A DNA stretch of 64,000 bases from Candidatus Babeliales bacterium (GTDB lineage: Bacteria > Babelota > Babeliae > Babelales > RVW-14), in NCBI GenBank assembly GCA_019749895.1, contig JAIEPG010000005.1:73371-137370 (forward strand), read 5' to 3'. Shown in pieces: positions 26,183 to 64,000 of this stretch. The notes below the pieces were generated by a model. The model was not told where the DNA came from and searched no databases. It saw nothing but the letters and a program-made list of their open reading frames with translations. Positions within the stretch are counted from its first letter, which is position 1. Each line of letters opens with the position of its first letter. A program made the position numbers and the translations under genes.

Positions 26183-27298
26183 ATGAAGAAACTACTAGCA
26201 CTTATTGTTGCCGTTATTCTGAATAGCTCATGTCACGCACTTTCGCTACCCGACAACGTTACCCTTTCCCTAGACATAATACCTCAAGAAACTCTGCAAA
26301 AATTTATTTCGTGCACTAATCACTATTTTGAACGAGAACGCGCTATGGAATTTCCGGACGATATTGTAAGAGAATTAGCACAAGAAGAGATTGCAGAAAG
26401 CGAATTGGAGCTATGGCAGCTCTATGCACTAGCACATCATTTGGACTATGGCGTTACCGCACATATTTGCGCACGACAACATTTGAATAAAACGGAACAC
26501 CTACCACTTGAACAGCGCTTACAAGCGCCCTTCAACCTACCATCAGATGTTTTGCGTAAGCATTATTTTTTAATGACCAAAGATGCTTCAGTCATGAAAT
26601 ATACGGACGAAAATGGAAAACCCGTCACCCTCAGCATGAATCTTTTTGAATACATTTATGGCCGCCGCCTTGAAATTAACAATTCAATTCTAGAACTTAA
26701 TGGCTTTTTTTTGGACGATATTTCCGGCATTGAAGTTTGTTTGGACGATCCGGCCGCATTAGTTTTTGATTTTAGTGATAACCTTTTAAAAAAAATACCC
26801 GAAGGTATTTCATGCGCACAGCAAGTAACCAGCATCAACTTGTCTAATAACCAACTCACCGGCCTGCCTGAAGGTCTGTGCCAATTAAAAAAACTTGAAA
26901 AACTTGATATCAGAAACAATCACATCACTCACCTACCAAAAAATATTGGTAACTTAACAAACTTGTGGCGTCTTGATGCCGACAACAATGAAATCATTAG
27001 CCTACCCGACAGCATATGCGACTTAGAAAACGCACACTGGCTTTCATTTAGAAATAACAAACTCACCCAACTCCCAAATGATTTGTACAAGCTGGACAAC
27101 CTTGAACGGCTGTGTGTAAGCGACAACAAGATTAGTCGCTTACCAGACAATATCAGCTGGACACAAAAGTTACGGGTTTTTGATGCACACAACAACCCAC
27201 TTGAACAATTACCTAAAGATTATAAGCGCTTAACCAGAGTGCCGATGCTTAATCTTGAACCAACACCAGCACCAGAAGTAACTGGCAACAATAATTAA
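26183..27298 (+). CDS. Leucine-rich-repeat (LRR) protein with signal peptide
   Basis: MKKLLALIVAVILNSSCHA resembles a signal peptide. About seven 23-residue repeats follow the pattern L..L.L..N.L..LP..I..L..L (for example LSNNQLTGLPEGLCQLKKLEKLDIRNNHITHLP). Confidence 0.85.
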   Translation: MKKLLALIVAVILNSSCHALSLPDNVTLSLDIIPQETLQKFISCTNHYFERERAMEFPDDIVRELAQEEIAESELELWQLYALAHHLDYGVTAHICARQHLNKTEHLPLEQRLQAPFNLPSDVLRKHYFLMTKDASVMKYTDENGKPVTLSMNLFEYIYGRRLEINNSILELNGFFLDDISGIEVCLDDPAALVFDFSDNLLKKIPEGISCAQQVTSINLSNNQLTGLPEGLCQLKKLEKLDIRNNHITHLPKNIGNLTNLWRLDADNNEIISLPDSICDLENAHWLSFRNNKLTQLPNDLYKLDNLERLCVSDNKISRLPDNISWTQKLRVFDAHNNPLEQLPKDYKRLTRVPMLNLEPTPAPEVTGNNN

Positions 27299-28687
27299 CA
27301 ACGGTTCTGCCGGCAAGCGCAGGCGCGCATAACCACAGGCAAGCGAGAGCCCCACAAAAAGACCGCCAAACCAGATAGTTATAAAAAATGGTTCGCGTGG
27401 CACACGACCAAGCAGGCACAATAAAGCGTAGCCAACAAAACCCAGCAGCATCAACGCAAACAAAAATATTTCGCTATAAATAACACCATAAATTTTTTTG
27501 TTATTAAGCTGCGGCTTAAGAAAACGCATAAGCAAGTCTGAAACGCTGCGCTTGTGCGAATAAGCTGGCAAAACGCCACCAGAATCTATCACCAGCAATT
27601 CTGAAGAATATAACGCAAAAGTTGTTTTGACCATATTGCGCACAGCATGGACAATGCTATGACATGGATTTTTGAGCATATAATTTTTCGCAATTTGTCC
27701 TGCCACAACAGATTCTTCAACATCCAACAACGGCCGACCGGCCTGAGCACGCTTGAGTTGCAAAGCGGCTGCATACTCGCTTTGAATAATCTCTTGCGCT
27801 TGCTGATAAGAACTATCGTGCTGCTCCATGCACAAGCGCGCGGCAACATGATTTAAAAAATGAACGCCCGAAAGCGTGTGAAAAAAAAGATACCCGGTAA
27901 GTGCGTAGTTACGCCAGAGCCAAGGCAACACAACAGCAAACCAGCTCAGAAATAAAACACACGCATCTCGCACTTTGTGTGCCAGCGGCGCACGTGACAA
28001 AAAGAAAAATAACACAATCGAAGCACATAACGTGAAATGACCAACAGGTCTAATCAGTGAGGCAAGGCCCAAAGCAAGGCCTGCACTCATCCCGAGTGCC
28101 CGGCGTCCTTCGACAAGCTCAGGATGACCGGGTTTTGGCGTCTTGTCGGTCGTAGCCCGTTCTCCCTGAGCCTGTCGAAGGGCGGGCGTAGACGGAAGAT
28201 GGGTGTATCGAGGGACAAAAAACAATAAAAAAAGCGTAAAGAAAATAGCAAATAACGTCTCAGTCATAACCAAGCCAGAAAAAATCAGGTAGCCGGGGTG
28301 TACCGCCCCAACCAACGCAACCACACGCGCAACTAACATATTGCCAGGAAACAGTGTGAGCGATAAAAAAAAGAACAGAATGGGAAGCAAACTTGCAAGA
28401 ACAATTTGCGCACGTAAAACAGCGTACAAGCTTTGACCAAAGAGTTTATAACATAAAGCTAAAAACAAAGAATACCCCGGCAAACGATAAAATTGCGGCG
28501 CACCATCAGCGTGCACAATACCCTGCCCATTGCTCAACGAAAGCGCTAACTCATGATAATGCCCAGCATCAAAAGCAAGCTGACAGGGGTTCTCTTGTAA
28601 AAATGTATTAAAAAAAATAAGACGAATAACTAAAGAAAGAATAAAAATAATCGTTAAAAAAAAACTATGTTGTTTAATGCTGTTCAT
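27230..28687 (-). CDS. GT-C membrane glycosyltransferase, ArnT/PMT_2-like, carrying an in-frame repeat insert
   Basis: FDAGHYHELALSLSNGQGIVHADGAPQFYRLPGYSLFLALCYKLFGQS matches the paralog at 28674. The C-terminus also aligns with that paralog, so the 69-nt convergent overlap with the LRR gene looks real. Confidence 0.7.
   Translation of the reverse strand: MNSIKQHSFFLTIIFILSLVIRLIFFNTFLQENPCQLAFDAGHYHELALSLSNGQGIVHADGAPQFYRLPGYSLFLALCYKLFGQSLYAVLRAQIVLASLLPILFFFLSLTLFPGNMLVARVVALVGAVHPGYLIFSGLVMTETLFAIFFTLFLLFFVPRYTHLPSTPALRQAQGERATTDKTPKPGHPELVEGRRALGMSAGLALGLASLIRPVGHFTLCASIVLFFFLSRAPLAHKVRDACVLFLSWFAVVLPWLWRNYALTGYLFFHTLSGVHFLNHVAARLCMEQHDSSYQQAQEIIQSEYAAALQLKRAQAGRPLLDVEESVVAGQIAKNYMLKNPCHSIVHAVRNMVKTTFALYSSELLVIDSGGVLPAYSHKRSVSDLLMRFLKPQLNNKKIYGVIYSEIFLFALMLLGFVGYALLCLLGRVPREPFFITIWFGGLFVGLSLACGYARLRLPAEPLLIIVASYFWCWCWFKIKHRHSG
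28107..28183. repeat. GC-rich palindromic repeat element, short copy B, in frame inside a GT-C gene
   Basis: ccttcgacaagctcaggatgaccggg and the inverted cccgttctccctgagcctgtcgaagg flank a 24-nt loop. On the minus strand it is translated as ...LRQAQGERATTDKTPKPGHPELVEGR... Confidence 0.75.
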
Positions 28688-30260
28688 GAGAAATGTGCGA
28701 CGTTATAACACCAAAAAAATACAACCAATAATGCCACGCAAAAAGTATGATAAATGGCTCAATAGGCAAGCGCATGCGCGCATAACCCCCAGCCAAGGCA
28801 ATTACTATAAAAAAGGCCATGAACGGCAGCACCCTGCCAGTGACACACACCATTGAAACGCGGCGCCGAAAAACTCCCGTGAGCACAAACAAAACAAAAC
28901 CCAGTAGCATAAACAACATAGTTAAAATTTCTGTAAAAATTACTACGCGCAACCATAATTTGTCAGTCGCTGGAAGTACATAGCGCTTGATCATAGAAAG
29001 CAACGAACGGTCTGGCGCAAAGTAATCAAACTCTGGCCGGCCCGACTCAAGATACAAAAGCTCTGCTGAATATAATGAAAATTTAGTGCGAAACATATCA
29101 GTAAGCCATAACTTGAGCGAAGTCAACGGATACTGCTTAAAGTAGCTTATCGCTAACTTTTCCTGCATTTGGCAATGCTCATATTCGTTTGGTTTTCGGT
29201 GATATTCCTTTTTAAAAGCATGCTCTTTCTTGCGCACTTTTTTATGTACCACTTCGCGCGCACGCTCATATGAAATATGTTGCTCATGCGCAACCACACG
29301 CGCCGCAGAAAAATATAAAAAATGGCCTCCGGGCAGTGAGTGTAAAAAAAGATGGCCCACCAACATATAATTGCGTAACAGCCAAAATGAAACAGGCACA
29401 ATCCAAGCAATCACAAACAAAAGACTCTTCGCACATTTTTCGCGCCAGTAATCATGCGATAAAAAAATCATGATTATAGAAAGAGGCAAAAGATAATGCC
29501 CCACCGGCCGCACCATTGAAGCAACACCTAAAAAAAAACCAGCCCATGCCAAGCGCTGAAACACGTGCTGGCGGCACTCAAAAAGTTTTTTGTCAGCACG
29601 CGTCATGGTGTACATATTTTCAACATCTTGGCCATACATCTTTTCGTAAAGCTCTAAAAAGGAGGCGCCGGTACACGCTGGACGCGGCAAAAACAATGAG
29701 CTCGCAATCTTGTTCATCCAATTTTTTTCAGGTGGCAACGAACCATTTTCAGGGCTCGAGCAAAAAAAGAGGTGATTGACTGGCAAAAAAAATAATACGA
29801 AAAGCAAAAAGAAAAAGAGAAATAATGTTTCGGTCATAAAAAAGCCGGCATACAAAACCAAGCCTAAATGCACCGCGCTATAAAGCGAAGCCACACGCGC
29901 TAGCAATAACATTTTGGGAAAAAGCGCAAGGCTGAGTAAAAAAATAAGCAGGGGCAAAAGACTCGCAATAAAAACCTGAAACCAAAGCGCCGTGGTTTTT
30001 TCTTGTCCAAAAAGAGCATAGTGCACTGCCAAAAAAACTGGGTAACCTGGAACGCGATAAAAAGCTGGCCTGCCATCTGCATTTGCAACACCCTTGCCCG
30101 CTACAATGCTGGTTGCCAACTGGTGGTACGTGGCAGAATCAGCTTGCCAAAAGCGATTCTCTTTGCTCAAATAACAACAAAAAACAAGAGCTCGTACAAT
30201 AAACGAAAACAAAAAAAGAATCGTCAGAAATTTTTTTTCTTTTTTTAATATTCCTATCAT
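28674..30260 (-). CDS. GT-C membrane glycosyltransferase, ArnT/PMT_2-like
   Basis: ADSATYHQLATSIVAGKGVANADGRPAFYRVPGYPVFLAVHYALFGQ. Polytopic. It overlaps the downstream paralog by 14 nt. Confidence 0.7.
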   Translation of the reverse strand: MIGILKKEKKFLTILFLFSFIVRALVFCCYLSKENRFWQADSATYHQLATSIVAGKGVANADGRPAFYRVPGYPVFLAVHYALFGQEKTTALWFQVFIASLLPLLIFLLSLALFPKMLLLARVASLYSAVHLGLVLYAGFFMTETLFLFFFLLFVLFFLPVNHLFFCSSPENGSLPPEKNWMNKIASSLFLPRPACTGASFLELYEKMYGQDVENMYTMTRADKKLFECRQHVFQRLAWAGFFLGVASMVRPVGHYLLPLSIIMIFLSHDYWREKCAKSLLFVIAWIVPVSFWLLRNYMLVGHLFLHSLPGGHFLYFSAARVVAHEQHISYERAREVVHKKVRKKEHAFKKEYHRKPNEYEHCQMQEKLAISYFKQYPLTSLKLWLTDMFRTKFSLYSAELLYLESGRPEFDYFAPDRSLLSMIKRYVLPATDKLWLRVVIFTEILTMLFMLLGFVLFVLTGVFRRRVSMVCVTGRVLPFMAFFIVIALAGGYARMRLPIEPFIILFAWHYWLYFFGVITSHISHEQH

Positions 30261-58549: not shown

Positions 58550-60238
58550 ATGCTCATAATAATCCCCATGTCTGGGGTTGGAAATCGGTTTATGCAAGCA
58601 GGCTATAGCGACCCAAAGCCACTCATCAACGTTGACGGCAAGCCAATTATTGAGCACGTGGTCAACCTCTTTCCCGGCGAACACAATTTTATTTTTATCT
58701 GCAACCAAGAACATTTACAAACAACAGAAATGTACAATGTACTGCGGCGCATAGCCCCTTCCGGCACTATTGTGAGTATTCCCAAGCACAAAAACGGACC
58801 AGTTTACGCCGTCTCAAAAGTTTTTAATCTGATCGACAATGATGAAGAAGTAATCGTTAATTATTGCGATTTTTCAATGTACTGGGACTATAACAACTTT
58901 TTGCACCACACGCGCACGCGCAATGCCGATGGTGCCATTCCTGCCTACAAAGGTTTTCATCCGCACATGTTGCACGATCCAAATTATGCATTTATAAAAG
59001 ACCAAAACCAGTGGCTGCTGGAAATAAAAGAAAAGGCTCCATTTACCACCAATAAAACGAATGAGTATGCGTCGACTGGCGCGTACTATTTTAAGCGCGG
59101 TTCTTTACTAAAAAAATATTTTCCAGAACTAATTGAACGTGATATTAACGTTAACGGCGAGTACTACGTAAGTTTAATTTACAACCTGCTCAAACGCGAT
59201 GGGCTCAATGTTTCGGTATACGAAGTACAGCATATGCTGCAGTGGGGAACTCCTGAAGATCTTGAAGAATATGTTGGCTGGTCAGCGTATTTCAAACGTG
59301 CTGCAGAGCAAGTAGAACAAAAAAAAATAACACACGACCTCATGCTCATACCTTTGGCGGGGCGCGGACAACGCTTTGTACAAGACGGCTACGCCGACCC
59401 CAAGCCACTTATTCCTGTCAGCGGCAAACCAATGATTGTGCAGGCGGCAGCAAGCTTGCCAGCAACAACCGAACAGATTTTTGTTTGTTTGAACGAACAT
59501 TGCCAACGCTACCCGCTCGAGCACGCCATTAAAGAAACGTATCCACATGCTGAGATAAAAAAACTGGATCACGTGACTGAAGGCCAGGCATGCACCTGCG
59601 AATTTGGTTTACAAAACATTGATCCAGAAAAATCACTGGTTATTGGCGCATGCGATAACGGCATGCTGTGGAACCAGCAGAAATATCAAGACCTGGTCGA
59701 CGACAAAAGTGTTGATGTTATTGCCTGGAGCTTTAGAAATCATCCATCAAGCAACAAAAACCCACAGATGTACGGCTGGCTGGCCGTTGACCACAATAAC
59801 GTTGTTACCAACGTTTCGGTAAAGGTCCCACTCTCAGCAAACCCATCACACGACCATGCAATTGTGGGCACGTTCACGTTCAAAAAAGCGGCCTACTTTT
59901 TGCAAGCGGCGCAAAACTTGCGCGCCAAAAATATTCGCGTGAACAATGAATTTTATGTGGACAGCTGTATTAACCAAGCTCTGGCAATGGGCCTCACGGT
60001 AAAAGTTTTTGAGGTGGATCACTATGTCTGCTGGGGCACACCCAACGACTTGCGCACCTTTGAATATTGGCAAAGTTTCTTTCACAAATGCACGTGGCAC
60101 CCGTACCGCTTAGAAAAAGACGCAACGGTAGCACCGGAAAAGATTGCAGAGCTTGATATGAAATATCGTATGTTTACACAACCAAACCGCGAACCATTGG
60201 TAACAGGCAAACAGCAGCAGGTTAGCCAAGCATTGTAA
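58550..60238 (+). CDS. Tandem double-domain sugar-nucleotidyltransferase-like (GT-A/NTP_transferase fold) protein
   Basis: There are two homologous halves. Half 1: IIIPMSGVGNRFMQAGYSDPKPLINVDGKPIIEHV ... QWGTPEDLEEY. Half 2: LMLIPLAGRGQRFVQDGYADPKPLIPVSGKPMIVQ ... CWGTPNDLRTFEYW. Confidence 0.65.
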   Translation: MLIIIPMSGVGNRFMQAGYSDPKPLINVDGKPIIEHVVNLFPGEHNFIFICNQEHLQTTEMYNVLRRIAPSGTIVSIPKHKNGPVYAVSKVFNLIDNDEEVIVNYCDFSMYWDYNNFLHHTRTRNADGAIPAYKGFHPHMLHDPNYAFIKDQNQWLLEIKEKAPFTTNKTNEYASTGAYYFKRGSLLKKYFPELIERDINVNGEYYVSLIYNLLKRDGLNVSVYEVQHMLQWGTPEDLEEYVGWSAYFKRAAEQVEQKKITHDLMLIPLAGRGQRFVQDGYADPKPLIPVSGKPMIVQAAASLPATTEQIFVCLNEHCQRYPLEHAIKETYPHAEIKKLDHVTEGQACTCEFGLQNIDPEKSLVIGACDNGMLWNQQKYQDLVDDKSVDVIAWSFRNHPSSNKNPQMYGWLAVDHNNVVTNVSVKVPLSANPSHDHAIVGTFTFKKAAYFLQAAQNLRAKNIRVNNEFYVDSCINQALAMGLTVKVFEVDHYVCWGTPNDLRTFEYWQSFFHKCTWHPYRLEKDATVAPEKIAELDMKYRMFTQPNREPLVTGKQQQVSQAL

Positions 60239-60301
60239 AGACACAAATTCGATAATTTGAAGAACACCTATCAACTTGTATAATGGTCGATTTGTTTAGT
60301 A

Positions 60302-60468
60302 CCCGTTCGTCCTGACTCTTCGGCAGGCTCAGAGCTAAAGGCCCTTCCCGCCTGCCCTGAGGAAGAACTCGCAGAGTTCTGTCTCGAAGGGTCGAAGGGT
60401 CGGGTACGAAAATGGCAACCAACAACACCCGCTTCGCCCTATCCTTCGACAAGCTCAGGACGAACGGG
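60302..60468. repeat. GC-rich palindromic repeat element, composite copy C, between convergent genes
   Basis: cccgttcgtcctga at 60302 pairs with tcaggacgaacggg at 60455-60468. Internal modules are ccctgaggaag..gtctcgaagggtcgaaggg and ccttcgacaagctcagga. Confidence 0.75.
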
Positions 60469-60516
60469 CTACGCGGGCTCATCACACCCTCGCCAAAATT
60501 ACGAGAAGAAGTTTGA

Positions 60517-62181
60517 TTAAGTTAATACCTTGAACCTAAACTGTTGATAATCCCACGTTACAAAAACAATATCGTTGGCCAGCCATTGTTGATCAAGTAC
60601 AAACGTAATAGCGCACGGCAAACCATCTGCATTCGTTTGATTTACTATGCGCCGGCCTAACGATACGTTTTCGGTTTCCATTTTTTCAAAAAATAACTGT
60701 TCTGGCTGGTGTGAAACAATATGCACGCCACCATCAACACGCTCAACACTCACATTGTACGAATCTTGATAATAACCGTGCCACGGCAAAGAACCTTCAT
60801 ACTCCCTCACCAAAAAAGTTTTGATATCATAATAAACTTTGTTCTTTTGACCACGAGACAGTAACCACACGGCCTGAGCGGTACCAGCAGCAAACCAGCG
60901 CAGCGGCAAGCCAGCAAAGATGATCGTTTTATTCTCACAACGCGTATCGTTAACCAGATTTGCAAACGCTGTTGTGGTCATGTGAAATACTGCTTCTTTT
61001 TTCTTTTGATGCACAGCAAACATTGTCCCACTGACAGCTATTGCTAAGAAAAAAGCCATGCTCATTGGCACACGCAGCCAACAGTATTTTTGCACGTAAA
61101 AATCTGTTGCATACGCAACTATAAACATCAAGAATGGCAAACCAATGTACAGATACCGAAACTGATGAAAGAGCAACACCGACGGCCAGGTAAAGAGGAG
61201 CATGCTCAAAACCAAAAAGACAAAAAATATAATTTTTTTTCGCGCAACAAACGGCCACAGCAACAAGCTTATCAACACAACAAGCAAGCCCGTTTTTAAA
61301 ACTTTGCCATGCGCAACCACAAACGAAATGCCAAAACTATCACAGGCGTATGTTACCCACACAAAAAAGCGTTCTTTTTGTCCAACCAAAAAAGCTATAA
61401 ATTTGGTGCTTAAACTTTCTGCCGGCTGGGCAGTCACCATGCTTGAAAATACCCACCAACGAAAGGCAAAGTAGGTTACCAACGCACACCAGTAGCCACA
61501 TGAAAGTAGTAAAGCATGCTTGAACTTGTCAGCGATGCTGGTTCTGTTGCGCTCACACACTTGCCACACAAAGCTCACCATAACTACCCAGAGCGGCAAG
61601 ACCACGAGCGTCTCTTTTGCAAACAGCTGCATAAAAAAAATAGAACACGAAAGCACATAGCACCACCAACTTCCCAAGCGCATAAACCGCCAGAGCAGGA
61701 GCCCGCACAGCAACAAATACAATAGATCGATCAAATAAATTTGATTAAACAAAATGCCCATATCTTTAAAAATCGTTGGATGAAAAGCAAAGAGCAGCGT
61801 TGCGCCATAAGCAGCGGAGCAGCTGACAACTGATGCAAAAACGTTAAAAATAATAACACTGTTGAGCGCATGCAACCCCACCATGAACAGTAAAAAACAA
61901 TAGGGCTGAATACCAAATATCATTTCTTCAAATGCAAAGTAAACAAACTGCATGGGCCGATACAATGCTGCCAGCCAGGAGGGGCAGCTAACAGAAAAAT
62001 TTGGTGGAAAAAAGGTTTGTGCAATATCGTGCGCCATAAAAAGATTAGTAATGTCCGTAGTTTTTGCATGATATAAAAAACCAAAGTCATCTAAAATAAA
62101 GCCCCATGAAGTAAACGGCAGCGCCAAAAAGCACATAACTAAAACAACAATACTTACCGAACACCAAAATTTTTTATTCAT
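60517..62181 (-). CDS. GT-C-fold-like polytopic membrane protein (TMTC/PMT-like), paralog
   Basis: WGFILDDFGFLYHA, LYRPMQFVYFAFE and LHALNSVIIFNVF. It has an ATGA overlap with the upstream paralog. Confidence 0.65.
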   Translation of the reverse strand: MNKKFWCSVSIVVLVMCFLALPFTSWGFILDDFGFLYHAKTTDITNLFMAHDIAQTFFPPNFSVSCPSWLAALYRPMQFVYFAFEEMIFGIQPYCFLLFMVGLHALNSVIIFNVFASVVSCSAAYGATLLFAFHPTIFKDMGILFNQIYLIDLLYLLLCGLLLWRFMRLGSWWCYVLSCSIFFMQLFAKETLVVLPLWVVMVSFVWQVCERNRTSIADKFKHALLLSCGYWCALVTYFAFRWWVFSSMVTAQPAESLSTKFIAFLVGQKERFFVWVTYACDSFGISFVVAHGKVLKTGLLVVLISLLLWPFVARKKIIFFVFLVLSMLLFTWPSVLLFHQFRYLYIGLPFLMFIVAYATDFYVQKYCWLRVPMSMAFFLAIAVSGTMFAVHQKKKEAVFHMTTTAFANLVNDTRCENKTIIFAGLPLRWFAAGTAQAVWLLSRGQKNKVYYDIKTFLVREYEGSLPWHGYYQDSYNVSVERVDGGVHIVSHQPEQLFFEKMETENVSLGRRIVNQTNADGLPCAITFVLDQQWLANDIVFVTWDYQQFRFKVLT

Positions 62182-63842
62182 GAGTTAAGCATTCTCAGTT
62201 GATTTTTTTGATAATCCCACGTTATAAACAATGGGTTTTGAGCAAGCAGCTCTTGATCAAGCGTAATTGAAACTTCGACAGGAAAGCCGTCGCTATTCAC
62301 GGCGTGCACCGTAAACGTACCAAAACAACCACACGCTCCTAATTCTTTAAAAAAATAGGGGCCATCTAAAACTTTGATACTAATCATGCCCTGTTCCAAC
62401 ACAACCTCAACATTGCCCAGCACCGGAGAAAACTCAACAAGACGATTCGCATCATACGCCATTAAAAAATCACGCGCATCGTAACACACGTCAATCGGCT
62501 GACCGGCATAAAGCTCAAGCGCCTGAGCGGTACCTGAACAAAAGCGCTGCAAAGGCAGGCCAACAAAACAAACCTTGCGATTTTTTATTGATGCGTGCGT
62601 ACTTAACACCTGCAACTGCCTAGTAATTGAAGCAAGTCCTTCACGCTTTGCTTTGTGGTAACGAGTAAACCGAACGGCACACAACACAACAACAACCGTC
62701 AAAACACAATTAATAAAAAAACGAACTCGTGGCCTGCGTTCAAAAAAATCAAGTGAATACGCAATCAAGCAGCAAAAAAACGGCAAGCCGGCATACAGAT
62801 AACAAAACTGATGAAAAACAATAAGAGACGGCCAGGTAAAAAGAAGCGTACTGAAAACCAAAAACAAACCAAACATTTTTTGTTTGCGCATCCAAAACGG
62901 GTAGAACAACAAGAAACTTATCCCTGCCAAAAGTATGCCCTTGAGGACACGATTATTGCCGGGAACCAGGGAGATTGCCGTCACATCACACAAGTACGTT
63001 ACGTACATAAAAACACGTTCTTTTACAACCACAAGCAAGCGACCAACATCAACCGATGCCGGGGAAAAAGCAGGCGCTGGCAAAACATAAAAACGTATGA
63101 GCATGTACATTATCGCGCACAAGCCATAACCCAACGCGTTTAAAAAAGCTTTTTTAAACGCTTCGTAATCCCAATACTTTTTTTTCTCATACGCAGCATA
63201 AAAATAAACAGCAACAAAAGCCCACGCAGGAAACACAATTAATGTCTCTTTTACCAGCAGTTGCACCAAAAAGAGCAGACACGAAAAAAAATAATAGATA
63301 ACACGTTGCGACCGCAAAAATTGCCACAACAGCAAACTAATCACGAGCAAGAAAAAAAGATCAATCACATAAATTTGGTTAAAAAAAATACCAAACCAGC
63401 GAGCAAGGCTGTAGTGAAAGGCAAAAAATAACGAAGCCCACCAAGCCGCCCACACAGCCAGAAACGAACATAAAATATTAAAAATGAGCACGGCATTGAG
63501 CGCATGCAGTGCAACGGTAAACTGATAATACCACAGAGGCTCTAAACCAAACGCCCATCGCTGCAAACCAAAAAAAATATACTGCATGGGCCGATACAAT
63601 GCCGACAGCGCATCACTGGGGCCAATTTCAAGATTGGGTGGGTAGTAGGTCAGCTTGATATCACGAATCAGAAAAATGCGCTTCAGATCAACAAAACTTT
63701 CAAGTTTGCTGTGCAAAATAAAGCCAAAGTCGTCAAAATAAAAACCCCAGCTTGTCTGCGACAATCCAAAGAAACCAATGATCAGCCCAAACAAGATGCC
63801 GGAAAAGATAAAACGTTTGAAGGCACCAACTTGATAATTCAC
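62178..63842 (-). CDS. GT-C-fold-like polytopic membrane protein (TMTC/PMT-like), paralog
   Basis: WGFYFDDFGFILHS, LYRPMQYIFFGLQ and LHALNAVLIFNIL. Its length (554 aa) equals that of its neighbour. Confidence 0.65.
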   Translation of the reverse strand: MNYQVGAFKRFIFSGILFGLIIGFFGLSQTSWGFYFDDFGFILHSKLESFVDLKRIFLIRDIKLTYYPPNLEIGPSDALSALYRPMQYIFFGLQRWAFGLEPLWYYQFTVALHALNAVLIFNILCSFLAVWAAWWASLFFAFHYSLARWFGIFFNQIYVIDLFFLLVISLLLWQFLRSQRVIYYFFSCLLFLVQLLVKETLIVFPAWAFVAVYFYAAYEKKKYWDYEAFKKAFLNALGYGLCAIMYMLIRFYVLPAPAFSPASVDVGRLLVVVKERVFMYVTYLCDVTAISLVPGNNRVLKGILLAGISFLLFYPFWMRKQKMFGLFLVFSTLLFTWPSLIVFHQFCYLYAGLPFFCCLIAYSLDFFERRPRVRFFINCVLTVVVVLCAVRFTRYHKAKREGLASITRQLQVLSTHASIKNRKVCFVGLPLQRFCSGTAQALELYAGQPIDVCYDARDFLMAYDANRLVEFSPVLGNVEVVLEQGMISIKVLDGPYFFKELGACGCFGTFTVHAVNSDGFPVEVSITLDQELLAQNPLFITWDYQKNQLRMLNS

Positions 63843-63881
63843 ATTGCCCTTTGAATTTGAATGTTTTGCTTTTCTCTTACT

Positions 63882-63993
63882 CCGTTCTCCCTGAGGAGCC
63901 CGTAGGGCGTCTCGAAGGGCTAGAGATTTATTTTGTTTTTCATGCCCGACCCTTCGAGACGCCCGTCTTTGCCGGGCTCCTCAGGGAGAACGG
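63882..63993. repeat. GC-rich palindromic repeat element, copy D, 40 nt upstream of a GT-C gene start
   Basis: ccgttctccctgaggagcccgtagggcgtctcgaaggg (63882-63919) has the inverted copy cccttcgagacgcccgtctttgccgggctcctcagggagaacgg at 63950-63993, with an AT-rich loop of about 30 nt between them. Confidence 0.8.
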
Positions 63994-64000
63994 GTATTTT

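What the first reader, a model, noticed from the sequence alone, without database searches (positions are those of the whole stretch)
28107..28183. Second in-frame repeat insertion, in a GT-C glycosyltransferase loop
A short (about 77 nt) version of the same element has 26-nt inverted arms ccttcgacaagctcaggatgaccggg / cccgttctccctgagcctgtcgaagg. It lies inside 27230..28687 and is read through as ...PALRQAQGERATTDKTPKPGHPELVEGRRALG...

This hydrophilic stretch has no counterpart of similar sequence in the adjacent paralog (28674..30260). At the equivalent position between hydrophobic blocks, that paralog has a different, longer loop.

Two independent in-frame insertions within 64 kb suggest either selection for frame-preserving copies or a real tendency of the element to land in coding DNA.
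Basis: partly seen in the sequence, partly recalled or inferred. Interest (0 to 1): 0.65.

Follow-up and report, generated by a model that had tools for sequence, protein, structure and literature searches.

The report
Hairpin repeat translated inside glycosyltransferase loop
A GC-rich DNA hairpin repeat has landed in frame in a floppy loop of a membrane sugar-transferase gene of an amoeba-associated (Dependentiae) bacterium; such protein-decorating repeats are known, but this family's coding partner is a small nuclease gene found with the same arms in many phyla.

Summary
Two 26-nt arms (28107-28132 and 28156-28181, 22/26 complementary) lie in frame inside the 485-aa GT-C glycosyltransferase gene 27230..28687(-).

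The palindrome is only the inner layer of a 130-nt nested insert (28086-28215). This insert encodes residues about 159-201.

The insert is not ancestral:
- A same-genus genome and more than 100 homologues lack it.
- An 85%-identical relative shares only the outer layer.
- Four other Babeliales lineages carry different hairpin repeats in the same loop.

AlphaFold2 models the protein confidently (pLDDT 93.6) except for the insert (60-65). The loop probably faces the cytoplasm.

Genome-wide I found 84 repeat loci. 56% are intergenic although only about 9% of the genome is non-coding, and 21 sit in frame in about 17 genes (UvrA, FtsK, DnaX, FabF and others). In-frame copies are therefore survivors of a stop-poor element, not evidence that it prefers coding DNA.

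The arms are the inverted ends that bracket a 96-aa GIY-YIG nuclease gene in Dependentiae, Chloroflexota, Actinomycetota, Bacteroidota and Alphaproteobacteria. The architecture resembles Ssn/SRM. However, the published SRM motif does not match, and the nuclease clade is separate.

Verdict: an RPE-like insertion of moderate interest.

The parts
27230..28687 (-). Host gene: a 485-aa GT-C (PMT_2/ArnT-like) membrane glycosyltransferase. It is one of two adjacent paralogues.
   Evidence: The ORF was found. Homologues carry PF13231. The AF2 model has pLDDT 93.6 and pTM 0.92. Foldseek top hits are ArnT 5ezm, AglB 3wak and Pmt4. All 13 family-invariant residues are kept.
28086..28215 (-). The whole repeat-derived composite insert (130 nt). 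It encodes roughly P159-S201: PRYTHLPSTPALRQAQGERATTDKTPKPGHPELVEGRRALGMS.
   Evidence: A repeated-k-mer island marks it. GC is 0.625 against 0.43 for the rest of the gene. It is absent from G041, P0002 and more than 100 homologues. AF2 pLDDT is 60-65 for residues 161-190.
28205..28215 (-). 5' end of the outer (D-type) hairpin element, TCCCTCGATAC.
   Evidence: CCCTCGATAC occurs 15 times in the genome. In about ten copies ACTCGGGATGAGCG follows within 20-40 nt. The 85%-identical relative L001 shares it at the same site.
28086..28101 (-). 3' end of the outer (D-type) element, GGGCACTCGGGATGAG. It supplies codons L198-G199-M200 and part of S201.
   Evidence: ACTCGGGATGA occurs 9 times in the genome, each time as the 3' end of a D element. 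It aligns with L001 and four genomic D copies.
28156..28181 (+). Right arm on the + strand, CCCGTTCTCCCTGAGCCTGTCGAAGG. On the gene strand it reads LRQAQGER.
   Evidence: Seen. It is 90% complementary to the copy at 60443-60473 (I3).
28107..28132 (+). Left arm on the + strand, CCTTCGACAAGCTCAGGATGACCGGG. On the gene strand it reads HPELVEG.
   Evidence: Seen. The arms are 22/26 complementary.
28133..28155 (.). 23-nt spacer between the arms. It is unique sequence, not repeated elsewhere in the genome.
   Evidence: K-mer counts are 1-5 across it. Only the arms are shared in the blastn census.
28674..30260 (-). Adjacent paralogue (528 aa) with an unrelated loop of roughly 80 aa at the same position. 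It is shown for comparison and is not part of the element.
   Evidence: It is 35% identical by BLASTP. The long-loop group of orthologues has 84-112 aa between the anchors.

Best explanation
The segment is a gene-less copy of a dispersed GC-rich hairpin repeat family, and it became lodged in a permissive loop of a GT-C glycosyltransferase.

**Two layers.** The outer layer is a D-type hairpin (TCCCTCGATAC...ACTCGGGATGAG). It entered after the split from the same-genus species G041 and before the split from an 85%-identical relative. The inner layer is a pair of inverted A-type arms (core CCTGAGCYTGTCGAAGG) sitting in the loop of that hairpin in this lineage only.

**Why it persists.** The total length keeps the frame, and the sequence is stop-free in the frame used. 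The ribosome therefore reads it as a hydrophilic stretch of about 42 residues. This stretch is predicted to be disordered and replaces a 14-residue loop between two transmembrane helices. The loop is most likely on the cytoplasmic face, away from the periplasmic active site, so the enzyme tolerates it. These points on tolerance and topology are inferred.

**Frame preservation.** It is a filter, not a property of the element. Insertions that break genes are lost. What remains is intergenic copies plus in-frame copies in linkers and loops.

**The coding partner.** The arms are the same sequences that, as inverted repeats, bracket a 96-aa single-domain GIY-YIG nuclease gene in this genome and across several phyla. 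I infer that this nuclease, acting on the hairpin in single-stranded DNA as the Ssn nucleases do on their repeats, generates or spreads the gene-less copies. That step is not shown.
For: **Insertion, not ancestral.**
- G041 (same genus, 66-69% identical) and P0002 have a 14-aa loop where the window has 44 aa.
- Short-loop orthologues have 27-47 aa between the anchors, against 64 here.

**Nesting and relative age.**
- L001 (85% aa identity) has the D ends at the same site with a different interior. That interior is nearly identical to the intergenic copy at C14:179952.

**Permissive or recurrent site.** Orthologues in other Babeliales carry other hairpin repeats in the same loop:
- P0023 has A-type arms.
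- P0106 has B-like arms.
- P0073 and P0105 have GTCAT-tagged hairpins resembling the published NTS.
- In three of these four (P0023, P0106, P0105) the insert is more GC-rich than the rest of the gene; in P0073 it is not (0.45 against 0.44). All four fold stably.

**Tolerated.**
- AF2 pLDDT is 93.6 overall but 60-65 at residues 161-190.
- All invariant residues are retained.
- The near-identical strain in other metagenomes keeps the element.

**Cytoplasmic side.** Net charge over 106 homologues is positive for the N-terminus, this loop, 231-241, 426-431 and the C-terminus, and negative for the D40 loop and 138-142.

**Census.** There are 84 loci. 47 are intergenic and 21 are internal to about 17 genes, among them UvrA, FtsK, DnaX, FabF, the CCA-adding enzyme, KdtA, BirA, BacA, NurA and MVD.

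**Nuclease link.**
- The arrangement arm-giy1-inverted arm is seen in the own genome, in G055, G076, G075 and G041, and in Dehalococcoidia, Chloroflexota, Microbacterium, an Actinomycetota MAG, Ferruginibacter and Sphingomonas.
- Across 151 Dependentiae genomes, presence of giy1 and presence of the arm core give a 34/14/15/88 table (odds ratio 14, p = 1.4e-11).
- No RAYT gene is present.
Against: - No empty-site/filled-site pair between close strains was found. No target-site duplication is visible, so mobility is inferred from distribution only.
- The genome's own two giy1 genes are flanked by B-type arms, not by the A-type arms of this insert.
- 14 Dependentiae genomes have arm cores without a strong giy1 hit, and 15 have giy1 without cores. 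MAG incompleteness and phylogenetic non-independence weaken the statistic.
- No GIY-YIG gene lay within 8 kb of 119 random arm copies in other phyla.
- The insert adds only 30 aa net although about 42 aa look repeat-derived. Part of the old loop was therefore lost, or the boundaries are less sharp than drawn.
- Topology rests on the positive-inside rule and on reading helix 70-83 as juxtamembrane. A plain helix count would place the loop in the periplasm.
- There is no RNA or protein evidence that the insert is translated. Several PMT_2 paralogues could mask loss of function.
Confidence: 0.8

Rival explanations
1. The hydrophilic loop is an ancestral or lineage-specific native loop of this glycosyltransferase. 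On this view it only resembles the repeats by chance or through GC-rich composition.
For: Loops at this position vary in length across the family, from 27 to 112 aa between the anchors. The net length gain is only 30 aa.
Against: - Exact 17-nt cores and both D ends match dozens of dispersed copies.
- GC is 0.625 against 0.43 for the rest of the gene.
- The same-genus orthologue lacks it.
- The relative L001 has another repeat variant there.
Confidence: 0.02
2. It is a REP/REPIN-type element, or a classical MITE, mobilised by a RAYT (HUH Y1) transposase or an IS transposase. On this view the GIY-YIG association is incidental.
For: It has a palindromic arm pair, many dispersed copies, and both head-to-head and tail-to-tail arrangements. 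Intragenic REPs are documented (PMC3733652).
Against: - PF01797 (Y1 transposase) has no hit in a genome estimated 95% complete.
- No target-site duplication is seen.
- The only gene found bracketed by the arms, in five phyla, is the GIY-YIG gene.
- Di Nocera et al. themselves note that CGTC-type REPs lack a dedicated transposase.
Confidence: 0.07
3. The insert has been exapted. Either the extra cytoplasmic loop or the -58.7 kcal/mol mRNA hairpin has a selected function, such as partner binding, translational pausing for membrane insertion, or mRNA stability. That would explain why this loop repeatedly holds repeats in different lineages.
For: - Five or six independent occupancies of the same loop occur in Babeliales.
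- The mRNA hairpin is strong, with z = -4.8.
- The insert is retained in strains from five habitats.
Against: - The occupants belong to at least three unrelated repeat families and encode unrelated peptides.
- The same-genus species does without any insert.
- The predicted structure is disordered.
- Similar inserts sit in about 17 unrelated genes.
- Together these fit tolerance, or a mutational hotspot, better than selected function.
Confidence: 0.08
4. The gene is decaying, and the insertion is one step in losing a redundant paralogue.
For: Several PMT_2-like paralogues lie in the same island. In the relative L001, the reading frame of the D 5' end differs from that of the window, and the upstream part is unassembled.
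Against: - The 485-codon frame is intact.
- All 13 invariant and most near-invariant residues are present.
- The AF2 model is confident.
- The sequence is identical in strains from several metagenomes.
Confidence: 0.05

Closest known systems
Rickettsia palindromic elements (RPE; Ogata et al. 2000, Science; cited as refs 13-14 in PMC3733652)
   Same: Both are GC-richer palindromic repeats in a reduced genome of an intracellular bacterium. Many copies are inserted in frame in functional, often housekeeping, genes and are read through as surface loops.
   Different: The sequence family differs, although I made no sequence comparison with RPEs here. The host phylum is Dependentiae. This copy is nested, with one repeat inside another. 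The arms here also bracket a GIY-YIG gene.
Intragenic REPs of the GTAG/CGTC super-families (Di Nocera, De Gregorio & Rocco 2013, PMC3733652)
   Same: Both are short stem-loop repeats, often as inverted dimers and mostly intergenic. A minority lie inside genes, notably replication and repair genes such as uvrA, uvrB and recB, and encode 20-30 aa. CGTC REPs have no known transposase.
   Different: The arms here do not start with a terminal GTAG or CGTC tag. CGTC and GTAG occur only inside the B-type hairpin. The genome has no RAYT.
Ssn single-strand nucleases with NTS/SRM hairpin repeats (Chenal et al. 2025, PMC11893778)
   Same: Both show the architecture repeat, then a roughly 100-aa single-domain GIY-YIG gene, then the inverted repeat. 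Both have hundreds of gene-less hairpins, are enriched in symbionts and are distributed across phyla.
   Different: - The published SRM search pattern has 0 hits in this genome, against 3-6 in shuffles.
- In the same foreign genomes, GIY-YIG genes flanked by SRM hits form a separate clade with 100/99 support from the arm-flanked ones, and the two repeat types never co-occur at a locus.
- The best solved relative of giy1 is UPF0213 BH0048, PDB 1zg2.
- NTS is rarely intragenic (2%), whereas about 25% of loci here are internal to ORFs.
Coxiella burnetii MITEs (PMC5896051; title and abstract only)
   Same: These are small inverted-repeat elements in an intracellular bacterium that alter protein-coding sequences.
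   Different: They are described as IS-derived MITEs. I did not read the details, and no GIY-YIG partner is mentioned in the abstract.
Mitochondrial GC clusters and double-hairpin elements of yeasts and chytrids (own knowledge, not checked here)
   Same: These are GC-rich hairpin elements in AT-rich genomes that insert into coding regions in frame.
   Different: They are organellar, unrelated in sequence, and have no associated nuclease gene of this type.

Membership tests
Ssn / SRM system (Chenal 2025) | The repeat matches the SRM degenerate motif HGTCWYN(0-2)YYVSBRHN(0-5)WNVSBRGN(0-2)RNCYNB. | tested here: not met
   The regex has 0 hits in the whole genome, against 3-6 in shuffles. It was verified on the NTS consensus, and the A, B and D units do not match.
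Ssn / SRM system (Chenal 2025) | A small single-domain GIY-YIG gene is flanked on both sides by inverted hairpin repeats. | tested here: met
   This is seen at own-genome C14:163466 and C14:218744, in G055, G076 and G075, and in five other phyla.
Ssn / SRM system (Chenal 2025) | The nuclease belongs to the Ssn clade (cd10448; blastp to SsnA CAX49033.1 below 1e-10). | tested here: inconclusive
   CDD and SsnA were not available. Indirectly, SRM-flanked GIY-YIGs form a clade with 100/99 support that contains no arm-flanked protein. The best PDB match of giy1 is UPF0213.
Ssn / SRM system (Chenal 2025) | The nuclease cleaves single-stranded DNA site-specifically next to the hairpin. | not testable with these tools
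   This needs a biochemical assay.
REP / REPIN with RAYT | A RAYT (HUH Y1 transposase) gene is present in the genome and flanked by the repeats. | tested here: not met
   PF01797 has no match in the own genome, which is estimated 95% complete.
REP / REPIN with RAYT | A conserved GTAG (or CGTC) tetranucleotide sits at one end of the stem-loop. | tested here: not met
   The A-type arms begin CCGTTCG... and end ...TCGAAGG(G). GTAG and CGTC occur only internally, in B-type units.
RPE-like in-frame palindromic elements | A dispersed palindromic repeat is read through in frame in otherwise conserved genes and is absent from orthologues. | tested here: met
   For this gene. Genome-wide, 21 internal loci lie in about 17 genes.
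RPE-like in-frame palindromic elements | The sequence is related to the Rickettsia RPE-1 to RPE-9 families. | not tested
   No Rickettsia sequence was compared.
MITE | Terminal inverted repeats plus a target-site duplication, and a related autonomous IS encoding a transposase. | tested here: inconclusive
   Inverted arms are present. No duplication is visible at this or at the D-element copies. The only coding relative carries a GIY-YIG gene, not a known transposase.
GT-C glycosyltransferase, PMT_2/ArnT-like (host gene) | The GT-C fold, with a conserved acidic residue in the first extracytoplasmic loop. | tested here: met
   Foldseek hits include ArnT 5ezm (E = 2.8e-5), AglB and Pmt4. D40 and Y44 are invariant in 107 sequences.
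GT-C glycosyltransferase, PMT_2/ArnT-like (host gene) | Pfam PF13231 matches above threshold. | tested here: inconclusive
   The protein itself gives no Pfam hit at E <= 0.01. Many homologues have a precomputed PF13231 assignment.

The most novel reading that the evidence does not exclude
The A/B/D hairpins and the 96-aa UPF0213-like GIY-YIG gene together form a cross-phylum, nuclease-only mobile element. It would be distinct from the Ssn/SRM pairs.

Its arms (CCGTTCG-CCTGAGCYTGTCGAAGG) stay almost letter-perfect from Actinomycetota to Dependentiae because the nuclease reads them in single-stranded DNA.

Gene-less hairpins would be copied into nicked or stalled DNA, including into each other's loops, which gives the nesting. 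Some coding loops, like this GT-C loop with five or six independent occupants, would be true insertion hotspots rather than merely tolerant sites.
Probability: 0.3. Interest if true: 0.75.

Novelty: new variant of a known kind. Interest (0 to 1): 0.45.

Why it matters
For this gene alone the result is modest. It is one more case of selfish DNA being written into a protein without killing it. It also shows a loop of a GT-C enzyme that accepts 30-40 extra residues, which could be useful for engineering or tagging.

The wider picture is more interesting:
- In a 1.56-Mb parasite genome about 17 genes, including core replication and repair genes, carry translated hairpin repeats.
- The same loop has been occupied independently by different repeat families in different lineages.
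- The repeat's arms are the ends of a tiny GIY-YIG nuclease cassette that recurs with nearly identical arms in at least five phyla.
- The cassette falls outside the published SRM motif and outside the SRM-flanked nuclease clade.

If the nuclease is shown to act on these arms, this extends the Ssn idea to a second nuclease/repeat lineage. It would also give a concrete candidate enzyme for repeats of the 'CGTC REP / RPE' kind, for which no transposase has been found.

Tried and rejected
- **Rfam.** A search of 27900-28400 at E <= 10 gave only chance-level hits, mir-2766 (13.7 bits) and CrcZ.
- **Literature.** Exact arm sequences gave 0 papers. Peptide words such as PELVEG, LSLSKG and FDKLR gave only unrelated papers. 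'Dependentiae' plus 'palindromic' gave nothing relevant.
- **RAYT.** Absent from the genome.
- **SRM pattern.** 0 hits.
- **NCBIfam.** No family matched the two GIY-YIG proteins.
- **Conserved-loop hairpin idea.** I tested whether each arm is a hairpin with a conserved 11-nt loop and covarying flanks. This is only partly true. In other phyla the flanks pair better than shuffled controls (4.47 against 3.74 of 8 positions), but only 22% have an uninterrupted run of 4 bp or more. In the own genome they are no better than control. I dropped it as a general model.
- **GIY-YIG genes near random arm copies.** None was found in 861 kb around 119 copies in other phyla. The link appears only when starting from the nuclease genes.
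- **Empty-site alleles.** Contigs break at the repeats and no informative joint was seen in other metagenomes.
- **De novo repeat islands from 11-mers.** These were too unspecific, because coding repeats contaminated them. I replaced them with six curated motifs.
- **Mod-3 test.** It is not meaningful on core-to-core spans, because the true insertion boundaries lie in variable flanks.
Full report
**Context.** The window is C12:73371-137370 of a 1.56-Mb, 42% GC, 16-contig genome. Homologues of the host protein come from Candidatus Babeliales / Dependentiae MAGs. The organism is near-identical in drinking-water, aquatic, biofilm, wetland and wastewater metagenomes.

**Observation.**
- The arms are CCTTCGACAAGCTCAGGATGACCGGG (28107-28132) and CCCGTTCTCCCTGAGCCTGTCGAAGG (28156-28181). 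They are 22/26 complementary and separated by 23 nt.
- They lie in ORF 27230..28687(-), which reads through them as ...PALRQAQGERATTDKTPKPGHPELVEGRRALG....
- The 18-nt core has 4 matches in the window against 0.02 expected. The 17-nt core CCTGAGCYTGTCGAAGG occurs 37 times in the genome against 0 for the reversed control.
- An independent Logan contig reproduces 27700-28600 exactly. A contig from an unrelated wetland run spans the element with 2 differences. It is therefore not an assembly artefact.

**Anatomy.**
- K-mer counts show further repeated modules outside the 75-nt palindrome: TCCCTCGATAC (28215-28205) and ACTCGGGATGAG (28097-28086).
- Elsewhere in the genome these two modules are the ends of a short hairpin element of about 40-50 nt, CCCTCGATAC-[stem-loop]-ACTCGGGATGAGCG. 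I call this type D.
- One D variant, CCCTCGATACACCCTACGGGCACTCGGGACGAGCG (C15:104396), matches the window's outer sequence on both sides. The A-type palindrome with its flanks sits where that hairpin's loop would be.
- The repeat-derived stretch is thus 28086-28215 (130 nt). Its GC is 0.625 against 0.43 for the rest of the gene. It encodes about P159-S201, including the M200 and S201 codons.
- The sense RNA folds to -58.7 kcal/mol (z = -4.8). The + strand DNA folds to -29.9 kcal/mol (z = -3.4).

**Is it ancestral? No.**
- The protein has more than 150 homologues.
- In an 18-sequence and a 107-sequence alignment the segment has no counterpart.
- Between the anchors (S/T)E.LF and (L/I)(I/V)RPVG, the short-loop orthologues have 27-47 residues. 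The window has 64. The orthologues of the neighbouring paralogue have 84-112.
- The same-genus genome G041 encodes a 459-aa orthologue (66-69% identical) whose loop is ITSLRDYSLRIIIG. P0002 (60%) has IKSLRDYSVRMIVG.
- The window has 44 residues there, a net gain of 30.

**Relative age.** The closest relative is P0003/L001, at 85% aa identity, on a Logan contig that begins inside the loop. It has TCGATAC...TCGGGATGAGCGG at the same place. Its interior differs (atttttcctgcggaaaaac plus a 32-nt nested piece) and is almost identical to the intergenic copy at own-genome C14:179952. The outer D layer therefore predates that split, and the interiors diverged afterwards. In L001 the D 5' end is read in a different frame from the window, and the upstream part is unassembled. 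I cannot say whether that copy of the gene is intact.

**The same loop is occupied repeatedly.** Four other Babeliales orthologues with unusually long loops carry hairpin repeats there.

| Orthologue (locus) | Repeat in the loop | GC of insert vs rest of gene |
|---|---|---|
| P0023 (L127) | A-type arms CCCTTCGACAGGCTC...GAGCTTGTCGAA | 0.57 vs 0.33 |
| P0106 (L189) | CCCGTTCTCCCTG...GTCGAAGGG...CGAACGGG | 0.53 vs 0.30 |
| P0073 (L128) | Two hairpins, GTCATTCCTGCGAAAGCAGGAATC and its inverted partner; close to the published NTS | 0.45 vs 0.44 |
| P0105 (L190) | GGATCCTCACGACCGCCCAAGGCGGTCTCAGGATGAC | 0.53 vs 0.45 |

Together with the window and L001 this gives five or six occupancies by at least three repeat families.

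**Host protein and side of the membrane.**
- AlphaFold2 on the 107-sequence alignment gives pLDDT 93.6 and pTM 0.92. The only internal low-confidence block is at residues 161-190 (60-65).
- Foldseek finds ArnT, AglB/STT3 and Pmt enzymes, so the GT-C assignment holds. The protein itself gives no Pfam hit.
- All 13 invariant residues of the family are present: D40, Y44, R68, P70, Y72, F146, R213, R259, G274, H276, G452, R455 and R457.
- Over 106 homologues, net charge is positive for the N-terminus (+0.96), this loop (+0.86), 231-241 (+2.5), 426-431 (+0.89) and the C-terminus (+1.63). It is negative for the D40 loop (-0.25) and 138-142 (-1.0).
- If helix 70-83 is the second juxtamembrane helix of the first periplasmic loop, as in ArnT (own knowledge), this gives a 10-TM, N-in/C-in topology. 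The insert loop is then cytoplasmic, opposite the active site.
- This is an inference, with odds of about 0.7. Counting 70-83 as a transmembrane helix would put the loop in the periplasm.

**Census.**
- Six curated motifs give 233 hits against 5 in a shuffled genome. The hits cluster into 84 loci.
- I made my own gene calls from ORFs scored by codon usage: 1312 genes covering 91% of the genome.
- With these calls, 47 loci are intergenic, 21 are internal to ORFs with at least 30 well-scoring codons on both sides, 12 are at gene edges and 4 overlap a gene end.
- Intergenic DNA is thus enriched about six-fold (p = 5e-28).
- Internal copies lie in UvrA, FtsK, UvrD/PcrA (the window's other case), DnaX, FabF, the CCA-adding enzyme, KdtA, BirA, BacA/UppP, NurA, a diphosphomevalonate decarboxylase-kinase fusion (three loci) and others.
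- The consensus A arm is open in 5 of 6 frames, B and D in 4 of 6, and this composite in 3 of 6. All reading frames are used among the internal copies.
- Core-to-core spans of the seven intragenic palindromes are 0 mod 3 in only two cases (coordinates).
- In-frame copies are therefore what purifying selection leaves, not a property or preference of the element.

**Partner gene.**
- The genome has no Y1/RAYT transposase. It has four small GIY-YIG genes.
- Two near-identical 96-aa copies (giy1: C14:163466 and C14:218744) are bracketed by inverted B-type arms. The upstream arm is CCGTTCTCCCTGAGGAGC...GGCGTCTCGAAGGG and its complement lies downstream. An A-type arm lies beside the second copy.
- B arms share both ends with A arms (CCGTTCNCCCTGAG...TCGAAGGG) and differ by an expanded central hairpin.
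- In other Dependentiae the giy1 orthologue is bracketed directly by A-type arms. In G055 these are 32-nt perfect inverted repeats, GCGCTCGTCCTGAGCTTGTCGAAGGATACGAG. In G076 D-type hairpins form a further outer layer.
- Across 151 Dependentiae genomes, a strong giy1 hit (E <= 1e-20) and presence of the arm core give a 34/14/15/88 table (odds ratio 14, p = 1.4e-11). This is not corrected for phylogeny.
- The core's distribution is patchy even within the family (0 to 112 copies).

**Beyond the phylum.**
- Exact 17-nt cores occur in genomes of more than ten phyla. About 140 chance matches are expected in 596 Gb. However, the hits share the upstream CCGTTCG, form clusters and have inverted partners, which chance does not give.
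- Starting from GIY-YIG genes in 14 of those genomes, 8 or 9 of 30 loci show arm-gene-inverted arm. These are in Dehalococcoidia, Chloroflexota, Microbacterium mangrovi, an Actinomycetota MAG, Ferruginibacter and Sphingomonas gilva.
- In S. gilva the flank is a D-type hairpin whose loop contains TCGACAAGCTC. This ties D and A together.

**Relation to Ssn/SRM.**
- Chenal et al. (PMC11893778) describe NTS/SRM hairpins flanking ssnA, a roughly 100-aa GIY-YIG nuclease that cuts single-stranded DNA next to the hairpin.
- The architecture here is the same.
- Their SRM search pattern has no hit in this genome.
- In the foreign genomes, loci with SRM hits have no arm cores, and loci with arm cores have no SRM hits.
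- In a maximum-likelihood tree the SRM-flanked proteins (PCVYILAS...NGTLYIGVT...NPxWxDLY type) sit in a 13-row clade with 100/99 support that contains no arm-flanked protein.
- The best solved relative of giy1 is the UPF0213 protein BH0048 (1zg2, E = 4.5e-18).
- I therefore treat this as a sister system that probably works like Ssn, not as a member of it. Cleavage activity and any role in spreading the repeats are inferred, not shown.

**Verdict.** The finding is real. Its core reading, a non-ancestral in-frame repeat insertion in a GT-C loop, is correct. The phenomenon is of a known kind (RPEs; intragenic REPs, PMC3733652). The suggested preference for coding DNA is not supported. New here are the nested anatomy, the recurrent occupancy of one loop by different repeat families, and the link of this unpublished arm family to a distinct clade of small GIY-YIG nucleases across phyla. 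Earlier notes of this scan pointed me to the Ssn paper and report similar cassettes elsewhere. I re-derived the link from this genome's own data.

Noticed in passing
own genome C13:72990-73202 and C16:386711-386926 (outside the window): A second type of small GIY-YIG gene (MLYVYILKS...YTAKYKPW...) lies directly beside tRNA genes. It is flanked by a different repeat (CACTCCGTCTACGC...GTAGCTACGACGGACAGGCAGCC). The C16 copy has an in-frame TAG.
   Followed up: partly
window 60300-60480 and 63882-63993: Intergenic composites of the same repeat super-family lie at the two outer flanks of a pair of adjacent paralogous 554-aa membrane-protein genes (60517..62181 and 62178..63842). One lies just downstream of the first gene's 3' end and the other just upstream of the second gene's 5' end. 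The second is a 21-nt perfect inverted pair of B-type arms.
   Followed up: partly
own genome C12:1-2256 (upstream of the window): A fused diphosphomevalonate decarboxylase and GHMP-kinase ORF carries three separate repeat loci in frame. One lies in the linker between the two enzymes, so the repeats may have helped create or pad the fusion.
   Followed up: no
L173 (Dehalococcoidia MAG, G154:C2:613112-616324): Beside a GIY-YIG gene the A-type arm forms a tandem array with a 33-nt period, at least nine copies of CCTTCGACAGGCTCAGG. A second array with a period of about 14 nt lies on the other side.
   Followed up: no
window 27230-27298: The 3' end of the glycosyltransferase ORF and the 3' end of the convergent LRR-protein ORF (26183..27298) overlap by 69 nt. 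The same overlap is kept in the relative L001.
   Followed up: no
L001:1-66: In the 85%-identical relative, the D element's 5' end is read in a different frame from the window's. The contig ends there, so that copy may be frameshifted or may have compensating changes upstream.
   Followed up: partly
metagenome runs X5-X8 laid on window 60100-64000: Contigs with 0 differences to the window occur in aquatic, biofilm, wetland and wastewater metagenomes from different studies. Essentially one clone of this Babeliales species appears to be widespread.
   Followed up: no
paralogue 28674..30260 and its orthologues: The roughly 80-aa loop of the long-loop paralogue group has conserved cysteines (FFC...C.EP.C) and a conserved F..(L/F)YE motif. 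This suggests a small folded module at the position where the short-loop group collects repeats.
   Followed up: no
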